DNA from: Candidatus Korarchaeum cryptofilum OPF8
GTDB lineage: Archaea > Korarchaeota > Korarchaeia > Korarchaeales > Korarchaeaceae
NCBI RefSeq assembly: GCF_000019605.1
Contig: NC_010482.1
Coordinates: 90,001 to 122,000 of the forward strand
DNA length: 32,000 bases
Direction: 5' to 3'
The notes under the pieces are model-generated. The model was not told the origin of the DNA, made no database searches, and saw nothing but the letters and a program-made list of their open reading frames with translations. Each line of letters begins with the position of its first letter. Position 1 is the stretch's first letter. Of this stretch, positions 5,716-20,732 are shown piece after piece. A program made the translations under genes and the position numbers.

Positions 5716-5864
5716 CCTTTATTCCCCTCCAAGTATGTAATGTGGAGTTCTATATCAATCCTCACAGCATAATTGAGCATCAGGAAAATCAATCCATTTA
5801 CATGGCGAAAGAGACCCTAACTTCACGAAAATTCTCAAAATTGAGGCAGTGGAAGATCCACCGC

Positions 5865-7259
5865 TCAACCGTGGGAGAGCCTCCTAGCTATATCCCTCCC
5901 TATCCATACTCCTGAAGCTGCAGCTTGAACGAGACCCCTCGACACTCCTGCACCATCGCCTCCAGCATAGAGGCCCTCTATAACCTTGGTCTCGAGATTG
6001 GGCTTCAGGTCTATCTTAGCCCCGTATAACTTAACCTCGATCCCGTAGAGGAGGGTGTGATCCGAGTATATTCCGGGCATTATCTCATTCATCGCGCGCA
6101 GCATCTCCAGTATGTCCTTCAGATATCTGAAGGGGAGCACGAAGCTCAAATCTCCCGGTGTGGAGCCCGGAAGGGTAGGCTTCACTATGCTCCTACTCAA
6201 CCTAGCTTCCGTAGATCTTCTCCCTCTCTTCAAATCCCCGAGCCTCTGCACTATCGGTTGATTCCCCGCGATTTCATTCGCCATCTTAGCTATACTCAAA
6301 GCGTAAGAGATCGTATCCCTGTAAGGCGCTGTGAACTCGGTTGTCACTAGGATGGCAAAATTCGTATTTTCCGTCTTGAAATCATTCCTAGAGACACCGT
6401 TGACAGTCACTATCCCCCAGTAAGATTCAGTGACCACCTCCCCTCTAGGGTTAACGCAGAACACCCTGACTTTATCGTCGAAAGTATCGCTGTAATAGAT
6501 GAGTTTCGGCTCGTAGAGGACGTCAGTGTACTCACGCATGACTTCGTAAGGGACTTCAACCCTCACCCCCAGATCAACCTTACCACCGTCCACCTTGACC
6601 CCCAGCCTCCTCATCTCACTGACTAACCATCCCTCCATGACCCTTCCAGTGGCTAGGACGACATATTTAGCCATAATTTCCTCTCCATTCGAGAGAGATA
6701 CCCCTGATACTCTCCCATTCTCCGTTAAAATCCTGCTAGCGGTTGCTCCAAACCTGATCTCTATTCCCATCTCATCCACCAACTTCCTGAGGTTCATCAG
6801 GACCCTGTAACCTCCATCGCTCCCCATGTGCCTTATCCTGAACGGCACTAGGAGGAGGCCCGCTTTCAGGGCCTTCCTCCTCAACCTCTCCACTTCCTCC
6901 TGATCCTCACCATAGACTTCCTTAGGAGCGCCGAGCTTAAGGAAGGAATCATCTACGTAATCTAATAGGTCCCAGAACTCCCTCTCACCTATCAAGTTCG
7001 CTAGATCACCGCCAACATCCTTAGTGAGGTTGAGCTTTCCGTCGCTGAAGGTACCTGCTCCCCCGAAACCTGAGACTATATCGCAGATCTGACAGGTAAC
7101 GCATCTACCGATGGACTTCAGGGGGCACCTTCTCCCCTCCAAATCCTTCCCCATCTCGATCACAAGAACTTTGGCCTCTGGAACTATCTTCTTTATCTCA
7201 ATCGCTGAGAAGAGCCCGGATGGGCCAGCTCCCACAACGACGACATCCCAGCTCTCCAA
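5865..7259 (-). CDS. FAD-dependent oxidoreductase of unknown specificity (COG2509-like uncharacterised FAD-dependent dehydrogenase)
   Basis: N-terminal VVVVGAGPSGLFSA dinucleotide-binding motif and a C-terminal GLYAGGDGAGVSRGLVQAAASG motif. 464 aa. Confidence 0.8.
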   Translation of the reverse strand: MESWDVVVVGAGPSGLFSAIEIKKIVPEAKVLVIEMGKDLEGRRCPLKSIGRCVTCQICDIVSGFGGAGTFSDGKLNLTKDVGGDLANLIGEREFWDLLDYVDDSFLKLGAPKEVYGEDQEEVERLRRKALKAGLLLVPFRIRHMGSDGGYRVLMNLRKLVDEMGIEIRFGATASRILTENGRVSGVSLSNGEEIMAKYVVLATGRVMEGWLVSEMRRLGVKVDGGKVDLGVRVEVPYEVMREYTDVLYEPKLIYYSDTFDDKVRVFCVNPRGEVVTESYWGIVTVNGVSRNDFKTENTNFAILVTTEFTAPYRDTISYALSIAKMANEIAGNQPIVQRLGDLKRGRRSTEARLSRSIVKPTLPGSTPGDLSFVLPFRYLKDILEMLRAMNEIMPGIYSDHTLLYGIEVKLYGAKIDLKPNLETKVIEGLYAGGDGAGVSRGLVQAAASGVWIGRDIARRLSHG

Positions 7260-7351: not shown

Positions 7352-8041
7352 CTACCTATTAGTTAGGAAGGAGAGAGTGCCCAGATATTCCCCATCAAGT
7401 GTTAGTACGTCTGTGGAGTCTGGATCTAGGCATCCCGGGAATATGGGCCCGTAATCTCCGGGATTCAGGATATCTCCATACCCTATCAGGGTATTGAATG
7501 CGGGCATGATCACTATAGTCTCAGGGAGCTTCTCACATATCGAATCCCCTATGACCCAGACTGGGACCCTTCCAACCCCTCTAAGGGATATTGATGGATG
7601 TACGTGACCCATTATCCCGAATTCATATGAAGATGACTCCTCCGCTGGGTATGCATGACCGTGAAAGATCCAAGCATCCCCTAAAGCCGCTCCCCTGCTC
7701 CCATGGACTATGAAATTGCTTCCAGCTAAACTAGGGAGTCCTCCATCATGGTTCCCCTGGACGACCTCGACTCTATCGAAGCTTTTAGAGAGCCTCTCTA
7801 TGAATTCCCTAATCCTGTGGCTGAAGACCAGGCCTATTGAGTGCTTCAAGTCCCCGGCAATGAACAAATTTTTCCCACCCAATGAGATGAGATTTTCCAG
7901 TATTTTACCACTCTGGTCAGGTATGTAAACACCCTGGCTCGCTAGTTCGATCTCGTAGCCCACGTGAAGGTCCGCCACGAGGACCCAGGCTTCACCATCA
8001 AAGTTTATCTCTATAGCGGGCCTCCCCCAGATAGGTCTCAT
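7352..8041 (-). CDS. Calcineurin-like metallophosphoesterase (COG1407 / PdeM-like)
   Basis: Ordered metallophosphoesterase motifs: ADLHVGYE (DxH), GDLKH (GDxxH), GNHD, FHGHAY, GHVHP (GHxH). 229 aa. Confidence 0.85.
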   Translation of the reverse strand: MRPIWGRPAIEINFDGEAWVLVADLHVGYEIELASQGVYIPDQSGKILENLISLGGKNLFIAGDLKHSIGLVFSHRIREFIERLSKSFDRVEVVQGNHDGGLPSLAGSNFIVHGSRGAALGDAWIFHGHAYPAEESSSYEFGIMGHVHPSISLRGVGRVPVWVIGDSICEKLPETIVIMPAFNTLIGYGDILNPGDYGPIFPGCLDPDSTDVLTLDGEYLGTLSFLTNR

Positions 8042-8043
8042 CC

Positions 8044-8418
8044 TTGGATGATGAGGTCAAGCGGATTAAAATACATTCGATGCTCTCCTCTCTCCCATGG
8101 AGGAGCGCGATAAAGGCCCTTAAGTACGCTCTGAGGGATAAGGTTGAGAGACATTCGTTTTCCCCGAGCGGCAGATACTTTTACGTCGTGAGGGGGGAGT
8201 TGAGCGATCATATTGTCCTCGATGATGTGTTCTGCTCCTGCATGGATCACTACTTAAATGTCGTAATCAGGGGGAAGAGGAGAGCTTGCCATCATATCGC
8301 CTCCGTGGTGATAGCTAGAGAATTCGGGAAAATAAGGGAGATAGAGCATAAGGATCAGGAATTCCTCGGGATATTGAGGAAAATAATGTTATCTGAGGGT
8401 ATGGTCATTGATGTGTGA
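8044..8418 (+). CDS. SWIM zinc-finger protein
   Basis: CSCMDHYLNVVIRGKRRACHHI fits the SWIM CxC-x(n)-CxH signature. The TTG start at 8044 lies only 2 nt from the divergent phosphoesterase start. An alternative ATG at 8080 would place the promoter inside the neighbouring gene. Confidence 0.7.
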   Translation: MDDEVKRIKIHSMLSSLPWRSAIKALKYALRDKVERHSFSPSGRYFYVVRGELSDHIVLDDVFCSCMDHYLNVVIRGKRRACHHIASVVIAREFGKIREIEHKDQEFLGILRKIMLSEGMVIDV

Positions 8419-8421
8419 TCG

Positions 8422-9234
8422 TTGAATACCGAAGACTTTATAACTGGGAGCGATATGAAGGCTCAAGTGGTATCGATGGATGCAGGCGATGATATCGACA
8501 GGGAACTTCTATCGAATTACCACAGGAGGATATTGAAGGAAGTAGTAGCGAAGAAGGTGGCTGGGGATATACTCTTCAGCGACAATATAGGACAGGCGAT
8601 GAGGAAGTGGAGGGAGTACTTCGGAGTTAAACAGAGCGAGCTAGCTAGAGCTCTTGGGGTATCAGCTTCAGTCGTCTCCGATTATGAATCGAGCAGGAGG
8701 AAGAGTCCAGGCTCCTCCGTGCTCAAGAGGTTCGTGATGGCCCTTATAGAGGAGGATGAGAAGAGGGGAGGAGCGATACTCAGATCCCTAGTGAGGACGA
8801 CGGGTCTAGTCCCCCTATTATCTAGCGTCATAGATATGAACGAGTACACATTGCCAGTCGAACTGGAGAGGTTCCTCGAGGCGATAGATGGAAGGATAAT
8901 AGTGGAAGCTCCTCAACCGACTTATGTGCATGGTTATACGGTAATAGACAGCCTCAAGGCGATCCTCAATTTAAGTGGATCGGATTTCATGAGGCTCTTC
9001 GGGACTTCCACCGAGAGGGCTCTGATATTCACGAGAGTATCCGCTGGAAGGAGCCCCTTAGTGGCCCTGAAGGTCGTCGATGTGAGGCCGAGCTTAGTGG
9101 TGCTCCACGGCCCTCAGCCGGATAGCGTGGATGAGTTAGGTATAAAGCTAGCTTCCGTGATGAGGGTTCCTCTAGCTGTCACCACTATAAAGGATGTCAA
9201 TGAGATCGTCGGGAGGCTGAGGAGCCTATCTTAA
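8422..9234 (+). CDS. XRE-type helix-turn-helix transcriptional regulator with a C-terminal domain (archaeal COG1395-like)
   Basis: MRKWREYFGVKQSELARALGVSASVVSDYESSRR is a classic XRE HTH. It starts 3 nt after the SWIM gene stop, which suggests an operon. Start is TTG 8422 or ATG 8455. Confidence 0.8.
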   Translation: MNTEDFITGSDMKAQVVSMDAGDDIDRELLSNYHRRILKEVVAKKVAGDILFSDNIGQAMRKWREYFGVKQSELARALGVSASVVSDYESSRRKSPGSSVLKRFVMALIEEDEKRGGAILRSLVRTTGLVPLLSSVIDMNEYTLPVELERFLEAIDGRIIVEAPQPTYVHGYTVIDSLKAILNLSGSDFMRLFGTSTERALIFTRVSAGRSPLVALKVVDVRPSLVVLHGPQPDSVDELGIKLASVMRVPLAVTTIKDVNEIVGRLRSLS

Positions 9235-9506
9235 TGCTATGCCGAGTCTCGGCAGTACGCTGCATTAGGGAGAATATGGAAAAACATTTAAGAGAAGCTT
9301 GGAGAAATTAGTGTTTTTAACGCAGTTTAATTATCTCTATTCTTCTCATATTAGGTTATTTGTGAGAGCCTAGCTCTCGCTTTCACATTCCTTCTCCTAA
9401 GCACCCTGAGGCATAGTTGGACCTATCAGGAGCATCATTCACTCTTAAGAGCGATTAAAAAAAGGAAATTGGTTGATCACCTCTCACTACATTGTTTAAA
9501 TAAAAA

Positions 9507-10376
9507 CTAGGAAGCGCTTATTATCGCGAATTGATGATAGAAGCGGGAGTATAGAATGATCACATAGGGATGACCGAAGCTTCTGGAGGACTTGTCGGGG
9601 TAGGGAAGTGCATAATAAGCGTAACCCACTGAGACCGATAGCTTCTTCCCCCTTATGTAAGAAGCCCCTCCACCAGGATAATTAGGATAACCGTAGAGCC
9701 GCCATTTCGTATTACCCTTATAAAAGTCGGCTTGGCTCCATAACTCAGCCTCAAATCTCGTAATAAGATTCCCAGTATTATCCCTGACTTTCAGTTGTAC
9801 TACTTTCCCGTTCTTGGAGACGTAGTCTGTTAATATAGCCTGTATGAAGTACTTCACATGTATCCTGTAATAATTTGGATATGTTTGCATGGTGTAATTC
9901 CCTATCCAGTTATAGTGCTTATAATCTGAAAATGTCTGTATACCACTGGCACAATTAAGACAATTTCCACTCATATCCCAAACTGAGAAATATGTACCTT
10001 TGAACTGGCTATCTGCTACCTTACCGAATATGAGCTTATCATTCAGATAGACGTAAAAGCTACTCCCATTAATGTCATAGTAGCGGTCAACATCGATGGG
10101 CTCATCCGTCACATTGATTCCTCTTTTGATGAACCTCCCCTGCTCATCCGTAACGTAACCCCTTCCTGGGACGTATACGTTAGGCTCTGGTATCAACTCT
10201 GGCGTCGGCGCGTTCTTTATCTCTTCCCATAATTCCTTTAATTCAGTAATGTTTATCCCCTCATCCACCTCTTTGCCCTCCGGTAGCTCTCGAGTCATAT
10301 TATCCGGTTGAGTCGCTCCATATAGAATGGGTAATAGAAGCACTATGAGTAGGGAAACTAATAGAAGGTCTCTCAT
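9507..10376 (-). CDS. Secreted protein, unassigned family 'A', copy 1
   Basis: Signal peptide MRDLLLVSLLIVLLLPILYGA followed by many N-x-S/T sequons. Family blocks APTPELIPEP, SQFKGTYF, CLNC, IHVKYFIQA, FEAELWS, GGASYIRGK and YSRFYHQFAI are shared with 11912-12787 and 14162-15040. Confidence 0.85.
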   Translation of the reverse strand: MRDLLLVSLLIVLLLPILYGATQPDNMTRELPEGKEVDEGINITELKELWEEIKNAPTPELIPEPNVYVPGRGYVTDEQGRFIKRGINVTDEPIDVDRYYDINGSSFYVYLNDKLIFGKVADSQFKGTYFSVWDMSGNCLNCASGIQTFSDYKHYNWIGNYTMQTYPNYYRIHVKYFIQAILTDYVSKNGKVVQLKVRDNTGNLITRFEAELWSQADFYKGNTKWRLYGYPNYPGGGASYIRGKKLSVSVGYAYYALPYPDKSSRSFGHPYVIILYSRFYHQFAIISAS

Positions 10377-10480
10377 AATCCGAATAGAGAAGGAAAAATA
10401 ATATAGGGATTTTCATGCGATAGCTATATATATACGACGAATGACGAGAAATTTATATTTATGATTTACTGCATCATATA
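10377..10480. promoter_or_regulatory. Bidirectional promoter of cassette 1
   Basis: The 104-bp AT-rich spacer has TATA-like aaaaataatata (10395-10406, about 20-30 nt from the minus-strand ATG at 10376) and aaatttatattta (10449-10461, about 20-30 nt from the ATG at 10481). A central block gattttcatgcgatagc(TA)5cgacgaatgacgag is conserved in cassette 3. Confidence 0.55.
10425..10434. repeat. (TA)5 dinucleotide repeat in the cassette 1 promoter
   Basis: tatatatata sits between the two TATA-like boxes. The orthologous position in cassette 3 carries (TA)7. Confidence 0.9.
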
Positions 10481-11773
10481 ATGATGAATAGGAAGATAAT
10501 AGTCATTACTGTAATCCTCATAGTTATCATATCCGCAGTAATCTCGATGGAAATAACTCAGATTGGCCATTCTAATACGCATGTTCATACCAGTAGCTCT
10601 AACATCAGTAGTTCGGTGACTGAACCTCGCAGCAATATTTCAACGACGGAGTCATTCTCGACTGAAAGAGATGCTATCTTCATAGGAGATGGAGCCCCCG
10701 CCTACGCGCTCCTGAAGATGAAGGATAAGATTTACGCATTAGGGGGAGGAGTCGCCGTCATTTTCTCGGAGGATTTGAGTCCCTTGTGCTATGCGAAGCT
10801 CAAATATAATATATGGAAAGCTGAGAAGTACGATGAGGACCGCTTTGTATCAATGCAGCAGTGGTATTCTCTACCCGGGAGCATAGCGATGTTCGATTCG
10901 GAGCTCAACTTGATATGGTCTGTTGATGGGAACTTCACGGATTTCAGAGTAGCAAATAATAAAATTTATGCAATAGAATCTAGGAGCGGTTTCTTAGAAT
11001 CTAGGAACGGCTCCTATTACCTAGATATATTCGATGGAAACGGTAATTTGATCAGATCATTTAAAGCATTAGATGTTAAGGAGATCGCGGGACGCACGGT
11101 AATACAGTATCTCCTATCTATAGAAGTCAAGGATGGTAAAATATATGTACCATATGTGTCAGGAGAGGCAGAAGGGCCCTACAAACTGACGCTCCTGAGA
11201 TTCGATGAACAAGGTAATTTGGAACTCAAGAAGGTCATATATGAGGCGAAGGAAAACATGGATCGCACTTACATATACAGCTATAAGGATGGGCTCCTCT
11301 TAGCGATCGAAGGCCCTATATGCCGCTATATCTACACAGATAGAGAGGGGAATATAGTGGGGAAGGCTGGGTGGAAGCCCCCACTAGAAGCGGGTTTCAG
11401 GAATTGTTGGGGTCAGGCGAAGGTATTGAATGATAGAGTTTACGTATTCGGTCACGATGAATGTTTATTCGCTGGATTCGTTGGCTTGGTAGATGAATCA
11501 TCACTCTACGTAAATGAGTACAATGAATCGATGTATTACACGAGGGTACAGGAGATAGTCCTTCAGAAGGGTGGTACTTGGCAGGATAACTCCGTCGTAT
11601 ATGATATCCTCTCGGATGGCGATGAGCTCTACGTGATAGGGATTGTTCAGATGAGCCTACCATCTGGTGCTTTCATAGTCAGAGTGGATCCTGATCTTAA
11701 AGTAAATATCAACAATCTCCTAGAACAGGCTGATGTGGTTTACTTGGAGGACATACCCCCATGTAAATCTTAG
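10481..11773 (+). CDS. N-terminally membrane-anchored beta-propeller-like surface protein, family 'B', copy 1
   Basis: One N-terminal TM helix (IIVITVILIVIISAVISMEI) is followed by a 37-aa Ser/Thr-rich stalk. Recurring strand motifs (KDKIYALGG, NNKIYAIES, DGKIYVPYVSG, NDRVYVFGHD, GDELYVIGIV, with D..GN.i turns) resemble PQQ/BamB-type propeller blades. It ends in ADVVYLEDIPPCKS. Confidence 0.85.
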   Translation: MMNRKIIVITVILIVIISAVISMEITQIGHSNTHVHTSSSNISSSVTEPRSNISTTESFSTERDAIFIGDGAPAYALLKMKDKIYALGGGVAVIFSEDLSPLCYAKLKYNIWKAEKYDEDRFVSMQQWYSLPGSIAMFDSELNLIWSVDGNFTDFRVANNKIYAIESRSGFLESRNGSYYLDIFDGNGNLIRSFKALDVKEIAGRTVIQYLLSIEVKDGKIYVPYVSGEAEGPYKLTLLRFDEQGNLELKKVIYEAKENMDRTYIYSYKDGLLLAIEGPICRYIYTDREGNIVGKAGWKPPLEAGFRNCWGQAKVLNDRVYVFGHDECLFAGFVGLVDESSLYVNEYNESMYYTRVQEIVLQKGGTWQDNSVVYDILSDGDELYVIGIVQMSLPSGAFIVRVDPDLKVNINNLLEQADVVYLEDIPPCKS

Positions 11774-11807
11774 TTGAGAACCTAAGACCAGCCGTAACCA
11801 ATTTTTT
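11768..11807 (+). terminator. Hairpin overlapping the stop codon, followed by a T6 tract, after B copy 1
   Basis: TCTTAG (11768-11773, includes the TAG stop) pairs with CTAAGA (11782-11787), and TTTTTT follows at 11802-11807. The same hairpin recurs after B copy 3 (16348-16367). Confidence 0.4.
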
Positions 11808-11911
11808 AAGATCATCATATCTACTGCTAAACATACCTCGAGTGAGCTGCTCCTCGACCGAAGCTCATACAGTTTCAAGAGCGATTGGAGGATCATAGAA
11901 AGGGGAGTAGT

Positions 11912-12787
11912 TCATTCTCTCACTATCGCGAATTGATGGTAGAATCGGGAGTGTAGAGTGATGACATAAGGACGACCGAAGCTCCTGCTCGCTAGGGAAG
12001 GATATTGTGCATAGTAAGAGAGCCCCACTGAGACCTTTACCGTCTTCCCCCTTATGTAGGAAGCCCCTCCATCAGGATAATCAGAATAGCCATAGAGCTG
12101 CCAACCTCTACCCTTACGGAAATTGGCCTCGCTAAATAGCTCAGCCTCGAATAGTGAGATGACCTTTCCCCCGCGGGGGTGCCCGCCCGATCTCAGCAGG
12201 ATACGTACTTTACTCTCATTCCAAGAAACACAAGAAATATAGCCCTGCAGCTCGGCCTGTATGAAATACTTTACATGTATTTTTCGAAAATCTGGATAAT
12301 TTTCTTCAGTATAATTCCCTATCCAGTTGTAATCTTTATAGCTTGAGAACGTTTGAGGGCCATCTTTACAATTTAAACAATGTCCAGTTTCATTAAAGAC
12401 TAGGAAATAGGTACCTTTGAACTGGCTATCGGTCACTCTCTCCAATATGAGCTTCTCATTCCTGTAAACGTAGAGAGTATTTCCGAGTTTGTCGGAGTAA
12501 ATATCCATCTCGTTTATCCTCAGCAGTGTGATGAAATTCAAGTAGGAGTCTGTGACAAATCCCTTCCCTGGAACGTATACGTTGGGCTCTGGTATCAACT
12601 CTGGCGTCGGCGCGTTCTTTATCTCCTCCCATAATTCCTTTAATTCTGTTATATTTGTTTCCTCATCTTCACTCTTCTTCCACTCTATGAATTCCGGGCC
12701 GAACCATTGACTCGAATTATCCGGCTGAGCTATTCCATATACGATAGGGATTATCATCAATGTGAGCAGAGTAGCTAGCGCCCTCAT
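11912..12787 (-). CDS. Secreted protein, unassigned family 'A', copy 2
   Basis: Signal peptide MRALATLLTLMIIPIVYGIA and the same conserved blocks as copies 1 and 3 (ITELKELWEEIKNAPTPELIPEPNVYVPG, identical to copy 1; CLNC; YSRFYHQFAI). Confidence 0.85.
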   Translation of the reverse strand: MRALATLLTLMIIPIVYGIAQPDNSSQWFGPEFIEWKKSEDEETNITELKELWEEIKNAPTPELIPEPNVYVPGKGFVTDSYLNFITLLRINEMDIYSDKLGNTLYVYRNEKLILERVTDSQFKGTYFLVFNETGHCLNCKDGPQTFSSYKDYNWIGNYTEENYPDFRKIHVKYFIQAELQGYISCVSWNESKVRILLRSGGHPRGGKVISLFEAELFSEANFRKGRGWQLYGYSDYPDGGASYIRGKTVKVSVGLSYYAQYPSLASRSFGRPYVITLHSRFYHQFAIVRE

Positions 12788-12875
12788 ACACCGAATTATC
12801 GCTGTGACGAAATATTAAGATTTCCATGGGCGAACATTGAAAAGTATATAAATCTGTTTTAAGTTAATTCGGGCG
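12788..12875. promoter_or_regulatory. Bidirectional promoter of cassette 2 (sequence unrelated to cassettes 1 and 3)
   Basis: The 88-bp spacer has TATA-like aatattaaga (12811-12820, serving the minus-strand gene) and aaagtatataaat (12841-12853, about 25 nt before the ATG at 12876). Confidence 0.5.
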
Positions 12876-14072
12876 ATGAGCATCAGGCTGGCCGTATTAA
12901 TAATCCTTGTCGTGGCAGTAATTTTAGCAATTTCAGTCATGAGAGTACCTCAAGCTGAGCATGGCGGTAGCTCTCACACCAGTAGTTCATCGAAAGAACT
13001 CTCCGTCGGAAGAGATGCTATCTTCATAGGAGATGGAGCCCCGGCCTACGCGCTCCTGAGGATGAAGGATAAGATTTACGCATTAGGGGGAGGAGTCGCC
13101 GTCATTTTCTCGGAGGATTTGAGTCCCTTATGCTATGCGAAGCTCAAATATAATATATGGAAAGCTGAGAATTATGATGAGGACCGCTTTGTATCAATGC
13201 AGCAGTGGTATCCGCCAACGCGGGTCGGGAGCATAGCGATGTTCGATTCGGAGCTCAACTTGATATGGTCCGTTGATGGGAACTTCACGGATTTCAGAGT
13301 AGCAAATAATAAAATTTATGCAGCAGAGCTTAAAGGGGATTACTATTATCTCGATATATTCGATGGAAACGGTAATCTGATTAGATCATTCAGGGTCTTG
13401 GATGCTAATGAAGTCACCGAGTGGATACGAGATTCATTAACTATAGAAGTTAATGATAAAATATATGTACCATACGTTTCGGGAGATAGCAAGCCCTACA
13501 AACTGATGCTCCTGAGCTTTGACGAACAAGGCAACTTGGAGCTCGAGAAGGAAATTTATGAGACCGAGGAAGACGTAGGTCGCACCTACATATACAGCTA
13601 TAGGGACAGTTTCCTTCTGACGATCGAAGGTCCCGCGTGCCGCTACATCTACGTAGATAGGAATGGGAGCATATTGAGGGAGAGTATTTGGGAGCCATTA
13701 TTCGAAACTGGGTTCAGGAATTGCTGGACTAGGGCGAAGGTAGTGAATGATAGAGTTTACGTATTCGGTCACGATGAATGCATATTCGCTGGATTAATAG
13801 GAATAATCGAGACACCCACTCCGGACTCCCCGAGCTTCAAGTACATACAGGAGATATTCGTCAAAAGGGATAGTACTTGGCAGGATAACTCCATCATATA
13901 CGATATCCTCCCGGATGGAGATGAGCTCTACGTTATAGGGCTGGTCCAGATGAATCTACCCTCGGGAGCTTTCATAGTCAGAGTGGATCCGGATATTGAC
14001 ACGGAAATTAGCCCACTCCTGGAGCGAGCTGATGTGGTTTACTTGGAGGACATGCCTCCCTGCAAATCTTAG
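12876..14072 (+). CDS. N-terminally membrane-anchored beta-propeller-like surface protein, family 'B', copy 2
   Basis: TM helix LAVLIILVVAVILAISV, a short Ser-rich stalk, the same blade motifs, and a C-terminus of ADVVYLEDMPPCKS. Confidence 0.85.
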   Translation: MSIRLAVLIILVVAVILAISVMRVPQAEHGGSSHTSSSSKELSVGRDAIFIGDGAPAYALLRMKDKIYALGGGVAVIFSEDLSPLCYAKLKYNIWKAENYDEDRFVSMQQWYPPTRVGSIAMFDSELNLIWSVDGNFTDFRVANNKIYAAELKGDYYYLDIFDGNGNLIRSFRVLDANEVTEWIRDSLTIEVNDKIYVPYVSGDSKPYKLMLLSFDEQGNLELEKEIYETEEDVGRTYIYSYRDSFLLTIEGPACRYIYVDRNGSILRESIWEPLFETGFRNCWTRAKVVNDRVYVFGHDECIFAGLIGIIETPTPDSPSFKYIQEIFVKRDSTWQDNSIIYDILPDGDELYVIGLVQMNLPSGAFIVRVDPDIDTEISPLLERADVVYLEDMPPCKS

Positions 14073-14161
14073 TCTAGGATCTCGGGCCGACTACCAAATT
14101 CATTTTCAAGAATGAAAAAAATAATTTTTATCGACCTTACACTACTTTGTTTAAAAAAACA

Positions 14162-15040
14162 CTAGGAGGCGCTCATTATCGCGAATTGATGATAGAAGCG
14201 GGAGTATAGTTTGATTATGTGCGGGTGTCCGAAAGGCGGTCTCATCGATAGGTAAGGGTAGGGAGTGTAATAGGAGAGCCCCACAGAGACGGATAGCCTC
14301 TTCCCCTTTATGTACTCGGCACCTCCCAATGGAAGATGAGGATAGCCATAGAGCTGCCAACCCACCCAGTTACATTTGACTTTATCGTTTTTCTCCTTGC
14401 AGTAGTTGGCCTCGCTCCATAACTCAGCCTCGAATCTCGTAATGATCTCCGTGCCATCCCTGACTCTCAGTTGTACTTTATTATTCGGGTTTCCGTTCTT
14501 ATAGACAGAACCTGTTAGTATGGCCTGTATGAAGTACTTTATATGTATCTTAACATATTTATCTCTATAAGCCGGATTATTATCAACTTGTGACTTTATT
14601 GATTGATAATCCTTATAAAATCCATATGTTTGATCGCCTTCACGACAATTTAGGCAAGTGTTATCCCTATCGAAGATTGAGAAGTAAGTACCTTTGAACC
14701 AACTATCTGCTACATTAGCGAATACTAACTTATCGCCAACATAGACGTAAAAACTACTCCCGTTAGTATCGAAATAATAATCCCTCTCATTAGTCCCCAG
14801 AGGCGTGATTATTTTTCCCTCCTTTACAATGTAAGGTTCAGGTATCAACTCTGGCGTCGGCGCATCCTTTATCTTCTCCCATATCTCCTTTAGTTCAGCT
14901 GTACTTATTTCCTCATTTATCCTCTTTCGATCCACGTCTCCTGGACTCGGCCCTTGAGTCATATTATCCGGTTGAGCCGCTCCATGCATGATGGGTAATA
15001 AAAGCACTATGAGTAGGGAAACTAATAGAAGGTCTCTCAT
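14162..15040 (-). CDS. Secreted protein, unassigned family 'A', copy 3
   Basis: The signal peptide MRDLLLVSLLIVLLLPIMHGA is nearly identical to copy 1. Conserved blocks include APTPELIPEP, WFKGTYF, CLNC, IHIKYFIQA, FEAELWS and YSRFYHQFAI. Confidence 0.85.
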   Translation of the reverse strand: MRDLLLVSLLIVLLLPIMHGAAQPDNMTQGPSPGDVDRKRINEEISTAELKEIWEKIKDAPTPELIPEPYIVKEGKIITPLGTNERDYYFDTNGSSFYVYVGDKLVFANVADSWFKGTYFSIFDRDNTCLNCREGDQTYGFYKDYQSIKSQVDNNPAYRDKYVKIHIKYFIQAILTGSVYKNGNPNNKVQLRVRDGTEIITRFEAELWSEANYCKEKNDKVKCNWVGWQLYGYPHLPLGGAEYIKGKRLSVSVGLSYYTPYPYLSMRPPFGHPHIIKLYSRFYHQFAIMSAS

Positions 15041-15147
15041 AACGAAGCCAGAGAGTTAAAAATAATATAGAGATTTTCATGCAATAGCTATATATATATA
15101 TACGACGAATGACGAGAAATTTATATTATGATTTACTGCATTATTGG
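15041..15147. promoter_or_regulatory. Bidirectional promoter of cassette 3 (near-copy of the cassette 1 promoter)
   Basis: aaaaataatatagagattttcatgcaatagc(TA)7cgacgaatgacgagaaatttatatt matches 10394-10460 apart from a few substitutions and the TA-repeat length. Confidence 0.55.
15089..15102. repeat. (TA)7 dinucleotide repeat in the cassette 3 promoter
   Basis: tatatatatatata, compared with (TA)5 at the equivalent site of cassette 1. Confidence 0.9.
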
Positions 15148-16353
15148 ATGATGAACAGGAAGGCATTCCTGGTTATAGCAGTTCTACTGGTCCTCATCAC
15201 AGTCCTCATAGCCCTAATCACGATTAAAAGATCCCCTGAACAATCCGGTGGAAGGGATGCTATCTTCATAGATCGAAAGGATCTGAAGAAGAGCCTCGAT
15301 GTACCACAATATGCTATCCTGAAGATTAAGGATAAGATTTATGCGTTAGGCGGTTATGATGAGGGAGTTGCTGTAATTCTCTCCGAGGATCTGAGGCCGA
15401 TATGCCATGCGAAACTCAAGCATGAGTTATGGAGAGCTGAGAAGTACGATGAGGATAGATTTGTAGCAATGTCAATTTGGTACTGGTATTCAGAGACGCT
15501 CGCAGCGGCCGGAAGCAATATAACGATGTTCGATTATAAGTTCAATCAGATATGGTCCGTTAACGGGAACTTCACGGATTTCAGAGTAGCAAATAATAAA
15601 ATTTATGTAATAGAGCACAGAGGGAATTCTAGTTATCTCGATATATTCGATGGAAACGGTAATTTAATCAAATCATTTAAAGTATTAGACGAAAGAGAGG
15701 TAGAGGAAGAATTAAAAAATTATGTATCTATAGAAGCGAAGAATAGTAAAATATACGTAGCCTATATATCGGGAGGGGATAGTGAGCCCCATAAACTGAT
15801 GCTCCTAAGGTTCGATGAACAAGGCAACTTGGAGCTCAAGAAAGCCGTTTATGGAGAATCAGGAACTCTTGGGAGTATACGTAACTATAGAGATGGGCTT
15901 CTCCTACCTCTTTCAACTTCCTCCTGCCGCTTCATATACGTAGATAGGGATGGTAACTTTTTGGGGGAGGCTCGATGGAAGCCCCCGTTCGGGGAGGGAT
16001 GCGCAGCTGATGCGAAGGTGTTCAATGGTAGAGCGTATATATTAGGCTATGATCCCAATTTATTCGCTGGTTACGTGGGCTTAATAAATGAATCGATATA
16101 TGTGAATGGATCATTCTACTACACGAAAGTGCAGGAGATATTCGTCAAAAGGGATAGTACCTGGCAGAGCAACTCTGTCGTGAGGGATGTCCTCCTTAAT
16201 GATGAGCTCTACGTTATAGGGCTGGTCCAGATGCATCCGCCATCCGGCGCTTTCATAGCTAGAGTGGACCCTTACCTAAATGAGGATATCAGCTATCTCC
16301 TCGAGCGAGCTGATGTGGTTTACTTGGAGGACATACCTCCCTGCAAATCTTAG
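15148..16353 (+). CDS. N-terminally membrane-anchored beta-propeller-like surface protein, family 'B', copy 3
   Basis: I place the start at ATGATG 15148 (MMNRKAFLVIAVLLVLI...), by analogy with copy 1 (MMNRKIIVITV...) and the conserved upstream promoter. The track ORF starts at 15109, inside that promoter. It has almost no stalk (SPEQSGG) and ends in ADVVYLEDIPPCKS. Confidence 0.85.
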   Translation: MMNRKAFLVIAVLLVLITVLIALITIKRSPEQSGGRDAIFIDRKDLKKSLDVPQYAILKIKDKIYALGGYDEGVAVILSEDLRPICHAKLKHELWRAEKYDEDRFVAMSIWYWYSETLAAAGSNITMFDYKFNQIWSVNGNFTDFRVANNKIYVIEHRGNSSYLDIFDGNGNLIKSFKVLDEREVEEELKNYVSIEAKNSKIYVAYISGGDSEPHKLMLLRFDEQGNLELKKAVYGESGTLGSIRNYRDGLLLPLSTSSCRFIYVDRDGNFLGEARWKPPFGEGCAADAKVFNGRAYILGYDPNLFAGYVGLINESIYVNGSFYYTKVQEIFVKRDSTWQSNSVVRDVLLNDELYVIGLVQMHPPSGAFIARVDPYLNEDISYLLERADVVYLEDIPPCKS

Positions 16354-16592
16354 TTGAGGATCTAAGACCAGCTACAAATTCATACTTCCCTTTTCACTTA
16401 GCATAATTATCTCACTAAGATAGAATCGTTTTCTCAAGCCCTGAATATCTACCGAAGGCCCCCGGCAAGTCGAGGTAAGCGTATGAGCTTGCGTTGAATG
16501 AATATGGAAAAAATTCAGAAAAACTTATAAAAATTAGCATTTTTAACATAACATTTATACGGTAATTCCTCTTCCATAGCAAGGGGTTATTT

Positions 16593-18752
16593 ATGAGAGC
16601 TGTAACCCTCGCCCTCATATCCCTCCTCCTCTTAAGCCTCCTCCCCGCCTCAGCCGAGGAGGAGAAAGTCATCGGGAAAATAGATATAGAGTACGCGAAG
16701 TACATCGAGAATAAGTTAACGAGCATCGGATCATACAAAGAGCCTAAATTCTTGGGTTTTAGAGTGGCAGGGACTCCTGAGGACCTAGAAACAGCTAATT
16801 TCATCGCTGAGGAGATGAGGAAGATGGGTTTAGTCAACGTCTCCTTGGAACCCGTCCCATTAGATGCTTGGGAATTCAAGGGGGCTAGATTGGAGCTCAG
16901 CAACGGCAAGGTGATCATAGCCTCCTCCTTCGGGGGCGTCCCGGGGACTGGGAGTGAGGGGATAAGCGGCGAGATCGTGTACGTGGGAGATGGTACTAGA
17001 GGCAATTACGAAGGTTTGAATGTCAGTGGGAAGCTCGTCCTCGCGTACTGGAATCCTGATATCAGCTGGTTCAATATGATAGCTCATGAAGCGATGATCC
17101 ACGGGGCCAAAGGCGTGATCCTCTTCAATCCGCCTAATGGAAGTTACGCTCAGCACCCCAATGCTTTACATTCTTTCGATGGTCTCTACAGCTCGGATTT
17201 CATTCCGATGATAGTCATAAGTAAGGAAGACGCTCAGGAAATAATTGAGATGCTGAAATCAGGTCCTGTAGAGGCTAAGATGGTGAACCTCGCTACTTTG
17301 AAGCGTGGTACTGGATGGAACACTATAGGCTACATCCCCGGGAGGAGGGCTGATGAGTACATACTGATAGCGGCGCATCACGATGCTTGGTTCTATGGAG
17401 CTATGGATGATACTGGTGCTGTGGCTGCGCTTCTAACTTTAGCTAAAGCCATAAAGGAGAGCGGTTACGTCCCGGAGAGGACTTTAGTATTCATGACACA
17501 CACAGCTGAGGAGTACGGGATTGTAGATGCTTATCACGATTGGCTCATAGGTGCTTGGTGGCGTATAACTCAAGCTCATCCCGAGTGGAGGAAAAAGGCA
17601 ATAGCATACATAAATCTCGAGGGGATGGCAATTAAAGGCGTTCCCTTAGGTGTAGATGCCTCCCCAGAGCTCTCCACATTTATCTCGGAGATCCTCGATG
17701 AGAGCAAAGAGCTCCTGCCTTACGGAAGGGGGGAATTGGAAGATGTTTATTGCTGGACCGAAGCATGGCCTTACGCAGCTGCAGGCGTTCCCAGCATAAA
17801 CTTGGATACATTCTCCCCCTGGTTCCGTCAGAACCTATATCATACTCAGTTCGATTCCCCCGAGATAATTGATTGGGATTACTTAGGGAAGATAGTCTCC
17901 CTGACAGCTAAGATCCTCATAAGGCTGGATAAGTCCGAGCTTCTACCCTATGACTTCAGCGCGAGGGCTGCTCACTTGAGGGAGAATTTGAATGAGACTA
18001 GGATGAAGCAACTCGGAGCTGAGCCTGAAGAACTCATGAAGGGAGTTGAGGAACTTGAGAAAGCATTCTCTGAGTTCAAGAACTTGAGTAAGAATGCATC
18101 ATCGGATGTAATAGTGAAAGTGAATTCAAAGCTGAGGGAAGCTGCTTATATCATGCTATCGGAACTTACAGCTCTCGATCCCTGGGATAACACGATATAC
18201 CCGCATCAGCAAGTTGAGTCCGATGCGCTCTTCCTGAGCTCCGCTTTAGATGCTTTGAAGGGAGGCGATGTCAATGAAGCCCTATCGATGATAGAATCCG
18301 TGAGCATAAACTGGTACGATTCGTTCTACAGTTACGAAGTATTCAAGAGGGAGCTCCTGCACAAATCCCCGAATTATGAGAGGATAACTTGGGGAGGCCT
18401 GGGCCATTTAGCGCCACCAATAGACCTCTGGAAGGAGTATAACTCCCTAAGGGAGAAGTCCATGGCCAATATCACGAACTACGATGCTGAAATTAGATCT
18501 ATCGAGAACCACCTGAAGGAGACGAAGGCCCTCTATCAGGAGAGGCTGAGAGATATAGCTAAAGCACTGAGTTCAGCTAGCTCCCTCATAAGGGAGGCGA
18601 ACTCAATCCTCAAATCGACCACGACTCAGAAGACAGAGGTCAGGGAGGAGACCGTAACACCGCAGGAGGCTATCTCACTAATACCAGCTGTACTGATCTC
18701 GATCTTAGTGATCGTAATATTGCTCGTGATCTACTTGAGGAGGCGTAAATAA
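16593..18752 (+). CDS. M28-family metallopeptidase with an inserted PA domain and a C-terminal helical domain (glutamate carboxypeptidase II / transferrin-receptor-like architecture), membrane-anchored at the C-terminus
   Basis: Signal peptide MRAVTLALISLLLLSLLPASA. Zinc-ligand-like motifs AAHHDAW, MDDTGAVAA, AEEYG and YHTQFD. A PA-like insert (KLVLAYWN...GAKGVILFN). A long helical C-terminal region followed by the TM helix LIPAVLISILVIVILLVIYL-RRRK. Confidence 0.8.
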   Translation: MRAVTLALISLLLLSLLPASAEEEKVIGKIDIEYAKYIENKLTSIGSYKEPKFLGFRVAGTPEDLETANFIAEEMRKMGLVNVSLEPVPLDAWEFKGARLELSNGKVIIASSFGGVPGTGSEGISGEIVYVGDGTRGNYEGLNVSGKLVLAYWNPDISWFNMIAHEAMIHGAKGVILFNPPNGSYAQHPNALHSFDGLYSSDFIPMIVISKEDAQEIIEMLKSGPVEAKMVNLATLKRGTGWNTIGYIPGRRADEYILIAAHHDAWFYGAMDDTGAVAALLTLAKAIKESGYVPERTLVFMTHTAEEYGIVDAYHDWLIGAWWRITQAHPEWRKKAIAYINLEGMAIKGVPLGVDASPELSTFISEILDESKELLPYGRGELEDVYCWTEAWPYAAAGVPSINLDTFSPWFRQNLYHTQFDSPEIIDWDYLGKIVSLTAKILIRLDKSELLPYDFSARAAHLRENLNETRMKQLGAEPEELMKGVEELEKAFSEFKNLSKNASSDVIVKVNSKLREAAYIMLSELTALDPWDNTIYPHQQVESDALFLSSALDALKGGDVNEALSMIESVSINWYDSFYSYEVFKRELLHKSPNYERITWGGLGHLAPPIDLWKEYNSLREKSMANITNYDAEIRSIENHLKETKALYQERLRDIAKALSSASSLIREANSILKSTTTQKTEVREETVTPQEAISLIPAVLISILVIVILLVIYLRRRK

Positions 18753-19609: not shown

Positions 19610-19907
19610 ACTATCGGAGTCAGCTTATGTATTCAGAGATCTTTAAATGTTATCTCGAACCCGATGTGTATTATAATAGTGCTTGGGCTCCGGAGCTGCC
19701 GCCTCTTCTGCGATGAAGATGCGGCTCAGCATTCCATCAGGGGGGTATCGTGATAGCTCCTGGATTCCCTATTCAAGATCTAAAAATTCGCTGGTAAGGG
19801 GGATGGATCAATTATAGTTGATCATCGCTCAGCGCGTTATAAAAACATATCCTTTCTCCGCTATCGATATCCTTATAAAAGATTATTTCCCAGTAAATAG
19901 TAGAGGG

Positions 19908-20732
19908 ATGAAGATGCGTCCATCAGTAGCTGTACTACTTCTCATCTTATTTCCGATCTTACAGCCCCTTGCAGCCCCAATAAAAATAGATGTCCCAATT
20001 TATGTCCCAGCTGAGCTTCCTGTCAGTGGGAGTGTTTGTTTAACATCTCCAATCGCGAGAAATTTGACAGCAAAGCTCTACGTAGATGGATCATTCTTCC
20101 AGGAAGGCGTGGCCGATGAGATGGGCTGCTATAAAGTGACGATAAGACCTTTGAGCCCTGGAGCACATAAGCTCCATGCTGAGATATTCAAGGACGGCGA
20201 TAAAGTAGCGGAGATCGAGGCTAATGTTATAGCCATAAGGGGGATGATAATAGTGAAACCTCAGCCTCTAGCGGAGATAATGAGGGGAGAAACTAAGAAT
20301 GTAACTTTGACCATAGAGAATAGAGCTCCCCTGAACCTAAGCAATGTCGCCCTAGAGATAGAGGCTCCTTTCTCCATATTCGGGGAGAGGATGATGAGGG
20401 TAAGGGAGTTCGCTATCTACGGGAAGATAGGAGATCTTCCTATGAATGGCTCCAAGGATTTGAAGCTAATTTTAGCTGTCCCAGTCAACTTCAGGCCAGG
20501 TAGTTACGATCTCAAGATAAACATGACTTATGAGATCACTTCATCGAAGTACAGCATCCTCCTGAAGGATAATGTTGTGGTACTGAATGAAACATATGTT
20601 AAGCCAACTCAACCTCCTTCCAGTATTGAAAACATATTGAGTCAGATGGCTCTCCCCATTATAGCTGTAATAGTCGTTATAGTAGCCGCGATCCTCCTCT
20701 ACATCTGGAGGAGGGGGAGGGGTAAAGCGTAA
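19908..20732 (+). CDS. Surface protein with a signal peptide, Ig-like and CARDB-like beta-sandwich regions, and a C-terminal TM anchor
   Basis: I place the start at ATG 19908 (MKMRPSVAVLLLILFPILQPLAAP), with a TATA-like cttataaaag (19872-19881) about 30 nt upstream. The track's TTG 19818 start adds a non-signal extension. NVTLTIENRAPLNLSNVALEIEAP is CARDB-like. The C-terminus is LPIIAVIVVIVAAILLYIW-RRGRGKA. Confidence 0.75.
   Translation: MKMRPSVAVLLLILFPILQPLAAPIKIDVPIYVPAELPVSGSVCLTSPIARNLTAKLYVDGSFFQEGVADEMGCYKVTIRPLSPGAHKLHAEIFKDGDKVAEIEANVIAIRGMIIVKPQPLAEIMRGETKNVTLTIENRAPLNLSNVALEIEAPFSIFGERMMRVREFAIYGKIGDLPMNGSKDLKLILAVPVNFRPGSYDLKINMTYEITSSKYSILLKDNVVVLNETYVKPTQPPSSIENILSQMALPIIAVIVVIVAAILLYIWRRGRGKA

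What the first reader, a model, noticed from the sequence alone, without database searches (positions are those of the whole stretch)
9444..16370. Tandem triplication of a divergent gene pair: an unassignable secreted 290-aa protein plus a membrane-anchored beta-propeller protein (candidate novel two-component surface system)
Three consecutive units of 2.2-2.4 kb each carry two genes. On the minus strand is a protein of about 290 aa with a cleavable-looking signal peptide. On the plus strand, 88-107 bp away, is a protein of about 400-430 aa with one N-terminal TM helix, a Ser/Thr stalk of variable length and repeated xxKIY[AV]...D..GN.i strands that look like PQQ/BamB-type propeller blades. 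Both families carry many N-x-S/T sequons and conserved Cys, which points to an extracytoplasmic location. I cannot place the 290-aa family in any family I know. Strict pairing, a shared bidirectional promoter and co-amplification of both genes as one unit argue that the two proteins act together. Possible roles are a receptor/ligand or adhesin module, or an exported effector with its cognate binder. Amplification with patchy divergence is the pattern expected for surface systems under diversifying pressure, such as virus attachment or cell-cell recognition. The function is pure inference.
Basis: partly seen in the sequence, partly recalled or inferred. Interest (0 to 1): 0.9.

Follow-up and report, generated by a model that had tools for sequence, protein, structure and literature searches.

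The report
Paired secreted protein and anchored propeller
A hot-spring archaeon (Korarchaeum cryptofilum) carries three tandem copies of a two-gene cassette, encoding an exported protein whose predicted fold matches nothing known and a membrane-anchored beta-propeller; the two genes always travel together, but their function is still unknown.

Summary
Window 9507-16353 holds three 2.25-2.4 kb units, each a divergent pair. A is about 290 aa with an N-terminal signal sequence. B is about 400-430 aa with one N-terminal TM helix, a Ser/Thr stalk and a beta-propeller. The window matches Ca. Korarchaeum cryptofilum: B3 is 100% identical to its NCBI protein.

A has no match in Pfam, NCBIfam, PHROGs, PADLOC or PDB sequences. 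Its confident AF2 model (pLDDT 86) has no Foldseek match in PDB or BFVD. Only 25 clusters exist among 1.84 billion representatives. B is a generic 7-8-bladed propeller by fold only.

Every korarchaeal A with readable upstream flank sits next to a divergent B (24 distinct pairs). Partner divergences correlate (r=0.89). A roughly 75-bp intergenic core is far better conserved than synonymous sites. Euryarchaeal A relatives (Geoglobus, Methanobacteriota, Pyrococcus yayanosii) are usually followed by a co-directional N-terminally anchored partner, sometimes a PQQ_2/BamB-like propeller.

Copy number at this locus ranges from 1 to 3 between strains. dN/dS is 0.1-0.35, which is purifying rather than diversifying selection.

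Best reading: B tethers secreted A at the cell surface, and A's invariant H/K/E/R/S/Q cluster is the functional site. Function remains inferred.

The parts
9507..10376 (-). A1: 289-aa exported protein of the A family. It has an N-terminal signal-like hydrophobic segment and no C-terminal anchor.
   Evidence: ORF; hydropathy and sequons; AF2 pLDDT 85.8, pTM 0.80; no Foldseek match in PDB or BFVD; no family match
10377..10480 (.). Divergent control region of unit 1. TATA-like boxes sit about 24-27 nt upstream of each start codon. The conserved central core is TTTCATGCGATAGCTATATATA-CGACGAATGACGAGAAATTTATAT and contains the palindrome ATAGCTAT.
   Evidence: Sequence; 84-95% identical to the intergenic regions of paralogous units whose coding synonymous sites differ by about 50%; the motif occurs only here and at 15075-15126 in the window
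10481..11773 (+). B1: 430-aa protein with an N-terminal TM anchor, a Ser/Thr-rich stalk (about residues 27-61) and a 7-8-bladed beta-propeller.
   Evidence: AF2 pLDDT 78.3, pTM 0.78, all-beta; 472 Foldseek PDB hits at E<=1e-3, all propellers
11912..12787 (-). A2: 291-aa A-family paralog.
   Evidence: orthologs 98-99% identical in L021 and L027, with dN/dS 0.09-0.12
12788..12875 (.). Divergent control region of unit 2. It has diverged (52% identical to unit 1) but keeps GATTTCCATG and TATA-like boxes.
12876..14072 (+). B2: 398-aa B-family paralog with a short stalk.
14162..15040 (-). A3: 292-aa A-family paralog with an extra Cys pair (C214, C223).
15041..15147 (.). Divergent control region of unit 3. 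Its core is nearly identical to that of unit 1.
   Evidence: (family D18)
15148..16353 (+). B3: 401-aa B-family paralog with almost no stalk. The true start is 15148, not 15109.
   Evidence: 100% identical over 401 aa to the NCBI Ca. Korarchaeum cryptofilum protein P0034
10666..10867 (+). Gene-conversion tract in B1, 98% identical to 13010-13211 in B2.
   Evidence: Repeat family D5; in B1/B2 codons about 46-135, pS is 0.05-0.19 against about 0.5 elsewhere

Best explanation
Each unit encodes a two-protein extracytoplasmic module.

B is inserted in the membrane by an uncleaved N-terminal helix. It holds a 7-8-bladed beta-propeller away from the membrane on a Ser/Thr-rich stalk that is probably glycosylated.

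A is exported by the Sec pathway and has no anchor of its own. It is captured and held at the cell surface by its cognate propeller.

A's conserved polar cluster is proposed as the working site, either catalytic or ligand-binding. Its residues are H173, K175, E211, R265, S277 and Q282, with S214 nearly invariant; they lie on neighbouring beta-strands of a fold with no known relative. One possibility is a hydrolase acting on an extracellular polymer, with the propeller as scaffold or substrate gate.

The two genes are fired from back-to-back promoters that flank a conserved operator-like core, so both products are made together.

The three units are old paralogs with different loops. They are most simply read as specificity variants, gained and lost between strains by unequal recombination.

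Shown here: the anatomy, export signals, propeller fold, strict adjacency, co-inheritance, conserved control region, purifying selection and copy-number variation. Inferred: physical A:B binding, the tethering role, and any catalytic or ligand-binding activity.
For: - A has a signal-like N-terminus and no C-terminal TM segment. B has a single N-terminal TM helix.
- B is a propeller: AF2 pTM 0.78 and 472 Foldseek hits, including Fbw7 at E 8e-10, CylK at TMq 0.58 and BamB at E 1.5e-7.
- A has a confident model with no structural or sequence relative.
- Ten columns are invariant over 19 sequences down to 25% identity: H173, K175, F177, E211, L212, S214, G251, R265, S277 and Q282.
- Adjacency: 24 distinct divergent A-B pairs with gaps of 68-168 bp. 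These cover every korarchaeal A that has readable flank, including lineages where A is 40-50% and B only 24-30% identical to the window copies.
- Distance matrices of partners correlate: r=0.89 overall and 0.78 within the close set, with 0 of 2000 Mantel permutations reaching the observed value.
- Euryarchaeal A relatives are followed co-directionally, often with overlapping stop and start, by an N-terminally anchored beta-rich protein. This partner is PQQ_2/BamB-like in L015, L016, L017 and L039. A different family fills the position in L035, L044, L045, L049 and P. yayanosii.
- hhalign of the B family against those euryarchaeal propellers gives probability 75%, E 2.6e-5, over 177 columns.
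- The intergenic core is 84-95% identical where coding pS is 0.5-0.6.
- dN/dS is 0.09-0.35.
- Variation lies mainly in coil and indel segments. B's C-terminal tail YLEDIPPCKS is among its most conserved stretches.
Against: - No A:B complex was modelled or measured. Adjacency and correlated divergence would also follow from simple linkage of two co-regulated but independently acting surface proteins.
- A's signal peptide could remain uncleaved (the -3 residue is Y or H), in which case A would anchor itself.
- The invariant residues could be structural.
- S214 is replaced by N in one very remote member, P0056.
- Some euryarchaeal loci (L006, L036, L046) have an LRR surface protein rather than a recognisable propeller next to A.
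- There is no consistent third gene that would point to a substrate. Neighbours range from an M28 peptidase to pyr genes, sucCD and the L40e gene.
Confidence: 0.45

Rival explanations
1. The two are co-regulated but independent surface proteins. A and B are both envelope or secretome components that share a promoter region for regulatory economy and stay adjacent through linkage, without forming a complex.
For: All the linkage evidence is equally explained by tight physical linkage. The region also encodes other exported proteins: an M28/PA peptidase, hyp304 and hyp510. No interface has been shown.
Against: The pairing survives re-orientation of the genes, from divergent in Korarchaeia to co-directional and overlapping in Euryarchaeota. 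It also survives relocation to unrelated loci and divergence of B to about 25% identity. That is hard to explain without a functional dependency.
Confidence: 0.2
2. This is the first reader's model: a variable adhesin or receptor module under diversifying selection, for example virus attachment or evasion, or cell-cell recognition. Under this model A is a non-enzymatic ligand and the paralogs are antigenic or specificity variants.
For: There are tandem arrays with strain-to-strain differences in unit number and content. L026 has 1 unit, L009 and L027 have different unit orders, and the window has 3. Variation is concentrated in loops and indels. Local windows in A1/A3 codons 121-165 have pN about equal to pS. 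GC3 is lower than in the flanks.
Against: Gene-wide dN/dS is 0.24-0.35 between paralogs and 0.09-0.26 between orthologs. Orthologous units are 96-99% identical across samples. The ten invariant residues, mostly polar, look more like an active or binding site than an antigenic surface. No viral or defence-library matches were found.
Confidence: 0.15
3. The pair is an antagonistic system: A is a secreted toxin or effector (for example pore-forming) and B is its membrane-bound immunity protein or receptor. The tandem array would then be like polymorphic toxin-immunity clusters.
For: It is a two-gene cassette in tandem diversified arrays with strict cognate pairing. A's model has long, twisted beta-strands. 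Very weak Foldseek rows include Cry78Aa and a fungal toxin.
Against: Those Foldseek rows have E>1 and TM about 0.1, so there is no real similarity. There are no PADLOC or PHROG hits. Known polymorphic toxins have a conserved delivery region with a variable toxin tip, whereas A varies in scattered loops and keeps its core. Single pairs sit inside housekeeping operons.
Confidence: 0.05
4. The cassette is cargo of a mobile or viral element that has spread within Korarchaeia, with no host function.
For: GC3 is 0.46-0.53 against 0.53-0.61 in the flanks. Pairs occur at several unrelated loci, one of them splitting a pyr gene cluster.
Against: There are no integrase, transposase or tRNA genes nearby and no match in 2.9 million viral contigs. 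Selection is purifying. The neighbourhood next to EamA and hyp304 is conserved even in a distant Korarchaeum (L004). The family is old enough to span several archaeal classes.
Confidence: 0.05

Closest known systems
BamB/YfgL and other PQQ_2-type membrane-tethered beta-propellers (bacterial envelope scaffolds)
   Same: B is a membrane-tethered propeller of about 350 aa facing the extracytoplasmic side. BamB structures are among its Foldseek matches (E 1.5e-7, TM 0.4-0.5). The propellers next to euryarchaeal A relatives reach the Pfam PQQ_2 cut-off (L016: 36.5 bits against 27.6) and align weakly with B (hhalign probability 75%).
   Different: B itself matches no Pfam propeller model. It is anchored by a TM helix, not a lipid. 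It is archaeal, with no outer membrane and no BAM. Its partner is an unrelated secreted protein.
TolB-Pal (adjacent genes for a periplasmic beta-propeller and a small envelope partner it binds)
   Same: Both are two-gene arrangements in which a propeller binds the product of the neighbouring gene in the envelope. This is a functional analogy only.
   Different: There is no sequence or domain relationship. TolB is soluble and has an extra N-terminal domain. Pal is a lipoprotein that binds peptidoglycan, which Korarchaeum lacks. This comparison comes from general knowledge and was not tested here.
Propeller-gated peptidases (prolyl oligopeptidase/DPP-IV family, archaeal tricorn protease)
   Same: The concept is a beta-propeller controlling access to a catalytic module. 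A keeps candidate catalytic residues (His, Ser, Glu, Lys). An exported M28 peptidase lies next to the array, and a reprolysin-like peptidase lies near the Geoglobus homolog.
   Different: In those enzymes the propeller and the alpha/beta-hydrolase domain are in one chain. A shows no similarity to alpha/beta hydrolases or to any peptidase family. The peptidase neighbours are not consistently present.
Two-component archaeal S-layers (SlaA/SlaB of Sulfolobales)
   Same: An exported, unanchored protein is held on the cell by a membrane-anchored partner encoded next to it. This is an analogy from general knowledge.
   Different: SlaB is anchored at its C-terminus and built of beta-sandwich and coiled-coil domains. 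SlaA is more than 1000 aa. There is no homology. Several A-B paralogs exist per genome.

Membership tests
Beta-propeller fold (B) | Circular array of 4-stranded antiparallel blades | tested here: met
   The AF2 model is all-beta with about 32 strands and pTM 0.78. There are 472 Foldseek PDB hits at E<=1e-3, all propellers, with best TMq 0.58. The FDxxGN blade motif recurs about every 50 aa.
PQQ_2 / BamB-like propeller family (Pfam PF13360) (B) | Sequence match to the family HMM above the gathering score | tested here: not met
   No Pfam hit for B1-B3 at E<=1 other than noise. None for the remote B homologs L001, L004 and L005.
PQQ_2 / BamB-like propeller family (B) | Remote homology detectable by profile-profile comparison to bona fide members | tested here: inconclusive
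   hhalign of the B family (A6) against the euryarchaeal A-adjacent propellers (A7, one of which passes the PQQ_2 cut-off) gives probability 75%, E 2.6e-5, over 177 columns.
WD40 / Kelch repeat proteins (B) | Repeat HMM matches | tested here: not met
   Only a Kelch_1 hit at E 0.25 for B3, and no WD40 hit.
Any curated protein family (A) | HMM match in Pfam-A, NCBIfam, PHROGs or PADLOC, or a profile match to any PDB sequence | tested here: not met
   Searches gave nothing below E 0.01. PDB profile searches with A3 and A5 gave a best E of 0.15.
Any solved or viral predicted fold (A) | Foldseek match with E<=1e-3 or TM>=0.5 | tested here: not met
Sec-exported / membrane-anchored proteins (A and B) | N-terminal hydrophobic signal or anchor segment, and no other TM segment | tested here: met
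   Kyte-Doolittle 19-residue windows above 1.6 occur only at the N-termini. No dedicated signal-peptide predictor was available, so cleavage of A's signal is inferred.
Polymorphic toxin-immunity cassettes | Recognisable toxin or delivery domain plus a cognate immunity gene, with variability concentrated in the toxin tip | tested here: not met
   There is no toxin, delivery or defence domain. The A core is conserved and variation lies in scattered loops. dN/dS is below 0.35.
Functionally linked gene pair (conserved neighbourhood criterion) | Adjacency kept across distant genomes, across loci and across gene orders | tested here: met
   There are 24 distinct korarchaeal pairs. Euryarchaeal A relatives have a co-directional N-terminally anchored partner.

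The most novel reading that the evidence does not exclude
A founds a new-fold family of extracellular archaeal enzymes (or ligand-binding proteins). Its members work only as a complex with a membrane-anchored beta-propeller encoded next door. This would be an ancient two-protein surface machine shared by Korarchaeia, Archaeoglobi, Thermococci and a Methanobacteriota lineage, with its own dedicated operator-controlled bidirectional promoter in Korarchaeum.
Probability: 0.25. Interest if true: 0.75.

Novelty: categorically new. Interest (0 to 1): 0.5.

Why it matters
If A and B form a surface complex, this would define a previously undescribed archaeal envelope module. It would also add a protein fold with no solved or annotated relative.

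The organism is an uncultivated-in-pure-culture hyperthermophile whose cell-surface biology is essentially unknown. The family is tiny (25 clusters in 1.84 billion representatives), yet it spans several archaeal classes and always keeps an anchored partner. That makes it a clean, testable case of a conserved gene pair of unknown function.

The very strongly conserved divergent control region also offers a handle on korarchaeal transcription regulation.

Against that, lineage-restricted exported 'hypothetical' families are common in archaea, and nothing here points to a specific activity. The present value is as a well-defined target, not a mechanism.

Tried and rejected
- Pfam, NCBIfam, PHROGs and PADLOC scans of A, B and remote A members gave nothing usable.
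- PDB sequence-profile searches with three alignments gave noise only.
- Foldseek of the A model against PDB and BFVD gave no match. Rows such as UNC119, galectins, alginate lyases, SPLUNC1 and Cry78Aa have TM about 0.1 and were rejected.
- I considered a resemblance between A's motifs (HVKYFIQ, ELWSE, HQF) and the PL7 alginate-lyase motifs recalled from memory. I dropped it because the fold search gives no jelly-roll match.
- A viral-contig scan for A found no relative.
- Rfam and tRNA scans of the window found nothing.
- Literature searches for Korarchaeum plus beta-propeller, PYCH_12870, and Korarchaeum plus S-layer plus signal peptide found nothing about these families.
- The upstream proteins in L006 (351 aa and 197 aa) were tested as B relatives and are not.
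- The Thermococcales-type partner (A8) could not be shown to be a propeller: hhalign against B gave nothing and against the PQQ_2-like group gave probability 23%.
- The ORF starting at 15109 was rejected as the B3 start.
- Antisense ORFs 11397-11663, 13450-13698 and 16415-17005 are treated as spurious because they are embedded in conserved genes on the other strand.

Full report
**1. What is in the sequence**

The region 9507-16353 contains six long ORFs arranged as three divergent pairs:
- A1 9507-10376(-) and B1 10481-11773(+)
- A2 11912-12787(-) and B2 12876-14072(+)
- A3 14162-15040(-) and B3 15148-16353(+)

Direct-repeat analysis finds more than 20 repeat families. Most of them recur at 2250-2417 bp spacing across the whole interval, with identities from 60% to 98%. 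The A paralogs are 52-62% identical and the B paralogs 59-69%.

The divergent intergenic gaps are 104, 88 and 107 bp. The convergent gaps are 138 and 89 bp.

B3 read from its second in-frame Met cluster (15148) is 100% identical over 401 aa to an NCBI protein of Candidatus Korarchaeum cryptofilum carried on a 1,590,757-bp contig. The window is therefore from that organism or an identical strain. The longer ORF from 15109 begins inside the conserved intergenic sequence, and the same stretch is interrupted by a stop in unit 1.

The flanks are ordinary chromosomal genes:
- Upstream: fumarase, an FAD-dependent oxidoreductase, a metallophosphoesterase and an HTH protein.
- Downstream: an M28/PA peptidase, EamA and TIP49.

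There is no tRNA or Rfam match in the window.

**2. The two proteins**

*Protein A.* A has one hydrophobic segment at the extreme N-terminus, followed by a conserved AQPDN-x-T/S motif, and has no other TM segment or C-terminal anchor.

*Protein B.* B has one N-terminal TM helix and then a Ser/Thr-rich linker of about 35 residues in B1, about 20 in B2 and almost none in B3. The rest is about 340 residues that AF2 models as an all-beta domain (pLDDT 78, pTM 0.78). Foldseek against PDB gives 472 hits at E<=1e-3, all beta-propellers. They include Fbw7 WD40 (8e-10), CylK (TMq 0.57-0.58), designed 8-10-blade 'Cake' proteins, BamB (1.5e-7), a Photorhabdus lectin and neuraminidases. So B is a generic 7-8-bladed propeller. 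At sequence level it matches no Pfam or NCBIfam model.

*Fold of A.* A's AF2 model is confident (pLDDT 85.8, pTM 0.80, 193 residues at or above 90). It is a mixed fold dominated by long beta-strands with two short helices. Foldseek finds nothing at E<=1e-3 in PDB (best E 0.057, all TM <=0.15) or in BFVD. None of the following give a credible hit, for the window proteins or for remote family members:
- Pfam
- NCBIfam
- PHROGs
- PADLOC
- PDB sequence-profile searches

**3. How rare and how old the families are**

The indexed search of 5.8 billion clusters found 20 A clusters and 16-17 B clusters. All the named ones are Korarchaeum.

An exhaustive HMM search with the A profile over 1.84 billion 50%-representatives found only 25 proteins at E<=1e-3. 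The remote members come from:
- a Korarchaeota MAG
- Pyrococcus yayanosii CH1 (PYCH_12870)
- a 'Euryarchaeota' MAG
- unnamed metagenome contigs

A scan of one genome for each of 185,579 species found 9 loci. These are Korarchaeia-like MAGs, a Geoglobus MAG and a Methanobacteriota MAG. A metagenome scan added 30 loci. No viral contig carries the family.

Across 19 sequences down to 25% identity, ten columns are invariant: H173, K175, F177, E211, L212, S214, G251, R265, S277 and Q282 (A1 numbering). They lie within the motifs H[IV]KYF[IV]Q, ELWSEANY, GYPD..GG, R.FG and S...HQ. The CLNC cysteines are specific to Korarchaeia.

**4. Are A and B linked?**

I translated all ORFs of the 50 fetched loci and searched them with HMMs of both families. 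Every korarchaeal A gene with readable upstream sequence has a B gene immediately upstream on the opposite strand. This gives 24 distinct pairs with gaps of 68-168 bp.

The pairs include lineages in which A is 40-50% identical but B only 24-30% identical to the window copies. They also include pairs at unrelated loci:
- one inside a pyrimidine-biosynthesis cluster (L001)
- one between the succinyl-CoA ligase and L40e genes in a 1.63-Mb genome (L018)
- one next to an Opp transporter and EamA (L004)

Pairwise identity matrices of partners are strongly correlated. Overall r=0.89, and r=0.78 among the 15 closely related pairs. In both cases 0 of 2000 Mantel permutations reached the observed value. 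Unit types stay together: A2-like copies are with B2-like copies, and so on. Linkage alone could produce this result, so it demonstrates co-inheritance. Whether there is co-adaptation remains untested.

**5. The same partnership outside Korarchaeia**

Euryarchaeal A relatives carry an extra N-terminal helical region. They are followed on the same strand, often with overlapping stop and start codons, by a protein with one N-terminal TM helix and 320-450 beta-rich residues.

In the Geoglobus MAG (L015), the Methanobacteriota MAG (L016, L017) and L039, this partner is a recognisable propeller:
- PQQ_2 scores 36.5 bits against a cut-off of 27.6 for L016.
- DUF5711 is above its cut-off for L015.

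These propellers align with the B family by hhalign at probability 75%, E 2.6e-5, over 177 columns.

In L035, L044, L045, L049 and P. yayanosii (L050) the partner belongs to another family with the same architecture, whose fold I could not determine. In L006, L036 and L046 the next gene is an LRR surface protein.

The rule 'unanchored exported A next to an N-terminally anchored beta-rich partner, often a propeller' thus holds across gene orders and phyla. This is the strongest argument that the two act together.

**6. Regulation**

The divergent intergenic region has TATA-like boxes centred about 24-27 nt upstream of each start codon. This would give leaderless or near-leaderless transcripts (read from the sequence).

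Between the boxes lies the core TTTCATGCRATAGCTATATATA(TA)CGACGAATGACGAGAAATTTATAT, which contains the perfect palindrome ATAGCTAT. Units 1 and 3 are 84% identical over the whole intergenic region, and the core is nearly identical. Intergenic regions from other paralogous lineages (L023, L024, L028) are 88-95% identical to unit 1. In contrast, synonymous sites of the flanking genes differ by about 50-60%.

The two halves of the motif occur nowhere else in the window. Unit 2 has a diverged version. Distant pairs (L004, L005) keep a TATATATA and GACG-like arrangement.

This pattern indicates selection, or repeated conversion, on a shared control element. It supports co-regulation.

**7. Evolutionary dynamics**

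- *Selection.* By the Nei-Gojobori method, dN/dS is 0.24-0.35 between paralogs with dS 0.6-1.2, so the triplication is old. Between orthologous units in other samples it is 0.09-0.26. One near-identical comparison is uninformative.
- *Gene conversion.* Tracts are visible in B1/B2 codons about 46-135 (DNA 98% identical) and in the A1/A3 signal-peptide region.
- *Where variation lies.* It is concentrated in predicted coil and indel segments. B's C-terminal tail YLEDIPPCKS is among its most conserved parts.
- *Codon composition.* GC3 of the six genes is 0.46-0.53, against 0.53-0.61 for the flanking genes.

The orthologous locus between the HTH gene and the M28 peptidase differs between strains:
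- The window has three units.
- L021 has the same units 1-2.
- L009 has M28, then a unit-2-like copy, then a unit-1-like copy (82%).
- L027 has flanks 97-99% identical, with unit 2 directly next to M28 followed by a B that is only 59.5% identical to B1 and 77% to B3.
- L026 has a single unit next to a 5'-truncated M28.

A distant Korarchaeum (L004) has a single pair beside EamA and a homolog of hyp304, which suggests an ancestral single copy at this neighbourhood.

Copy-number and content variation is therefore real. Only short windows (A1/A3 codons 121-165) have pN about equal to pS.

**8. Interpretation**

The best-supported model is a two-protein surface module. B is a membrane-anchored propeller on a stalk that captures the otherwise unanchored, exported A. 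A's invariant polar cluster is the catalytic or ligand-binding site. Paralogous units are specificity variants. Both genes are co-fired from a regulated bidirectional promoter. I put this at about 0.45.

The enzymatic version, for example a split, propeller-assisted hydrolase, is suggested by two things. One is the kind of residues conserved. The other is exported peptidases near some loci. It is not otherwise supported.

The rivals, each argued in its own section, are:
- co-regulated but independent surface proteins (0.2)
- an effector-immunity pair (0.05)
- mobile-element cargo (0.05)

**9. Novelty and score**

B is a new member of a known fold. A is unplaceable with every library available. 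The A plus anchored-partner module is not a described system, so I rate the finding as categorically new in kind.

Noticed in passing
window 16593-18752 (+): Directly downstream of the array lies a 719-aa M28 peptidase with a PA domain, an N-terminal signal sequence and a C-terminal TM anchor. It is another surface-displayed protein. In one metagenome contig (L026) it is 5'-truncated right next to a single A-B unit.
   Followed up: partly
window 19818-20732 (+), likely true start near 19908: This is a protein with no Pfam match. It has a signal peptide, several sequons, a C-terminal TM helix and an RRGRGKA tail. Its GC3 (0.48) is as low as that of the A/B genes. A homolog (82% over 62 aa) sits right next to the single A-B pair of a distant Korarchaeum (L004 9519-9704).
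   Followed up: partly
window 22120-23652 (+): This is a 510-aa protein with a signal-peptide-like start (MKRYLTLLMLLLLTFATVEG) and no Pfam match. It is a third unassigned exported protein in this neighbourhood.
   Followed up: no
window 7352-9234: Three genes are tightly packed. A metallophosphoesterase gene (-) abuts a 124-aa protein with a SWIM-like CxC...CxH motif (8044-8418, no Pfam hit), which is followed 3 nt later by an HTH_3/HTH_31 protein (8422-9234). This trio is conserved next to the array in L020, L021 and L026. The HTH protein is an untested candidate regulator.
   Followed up: partly
L017 1098-3827: In a Methanobacteriota MAG, the gene after the A homolog is one 909-aa ORF. It joins an LRR surface domain, a TM segment and the PQQ_2-like propeller. 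This is either a real fusion or two genes merged by an assembly or frame artefact.
   Followed up: no
L050 5730-6861 (Pyrococcus yayanosii CH1): The A homolog PYCH_12870 appears split. An 86-aa ORF with the signal peptide and N-terminal region (5730-5990) sits just upstream in another frame. This suggests a frameshift, either a pseudogene or a sequencing error.
   Followed up: partly
L001 6726-8873: A single A-B pair sits in the middle of a pyrimidine-biosynthesis gene cluster, between pyrI and a pyrK-like gene. This suggests the pair moves as a unit.
   Followed up: no
L015 4217-5500; L006 6292-7993: Euryarchaeal A loci are embedded among other exported proteins. These include a reprolysin-like M12 metallopeptidase, LRR proteins, and unassigned proteins with a signal peptide and a C-terminal TM segment.
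   Followed up: partly
window 11397-11663, 13450-13698, 16415-17005, 16860-17156 (all -): These are long antisense ORFs lying inside B1, B2 and the M28 gene. They have low-complexity, Arg/Ser/Pro-rich translations and are almost certainly not genes.
   Followed up: no
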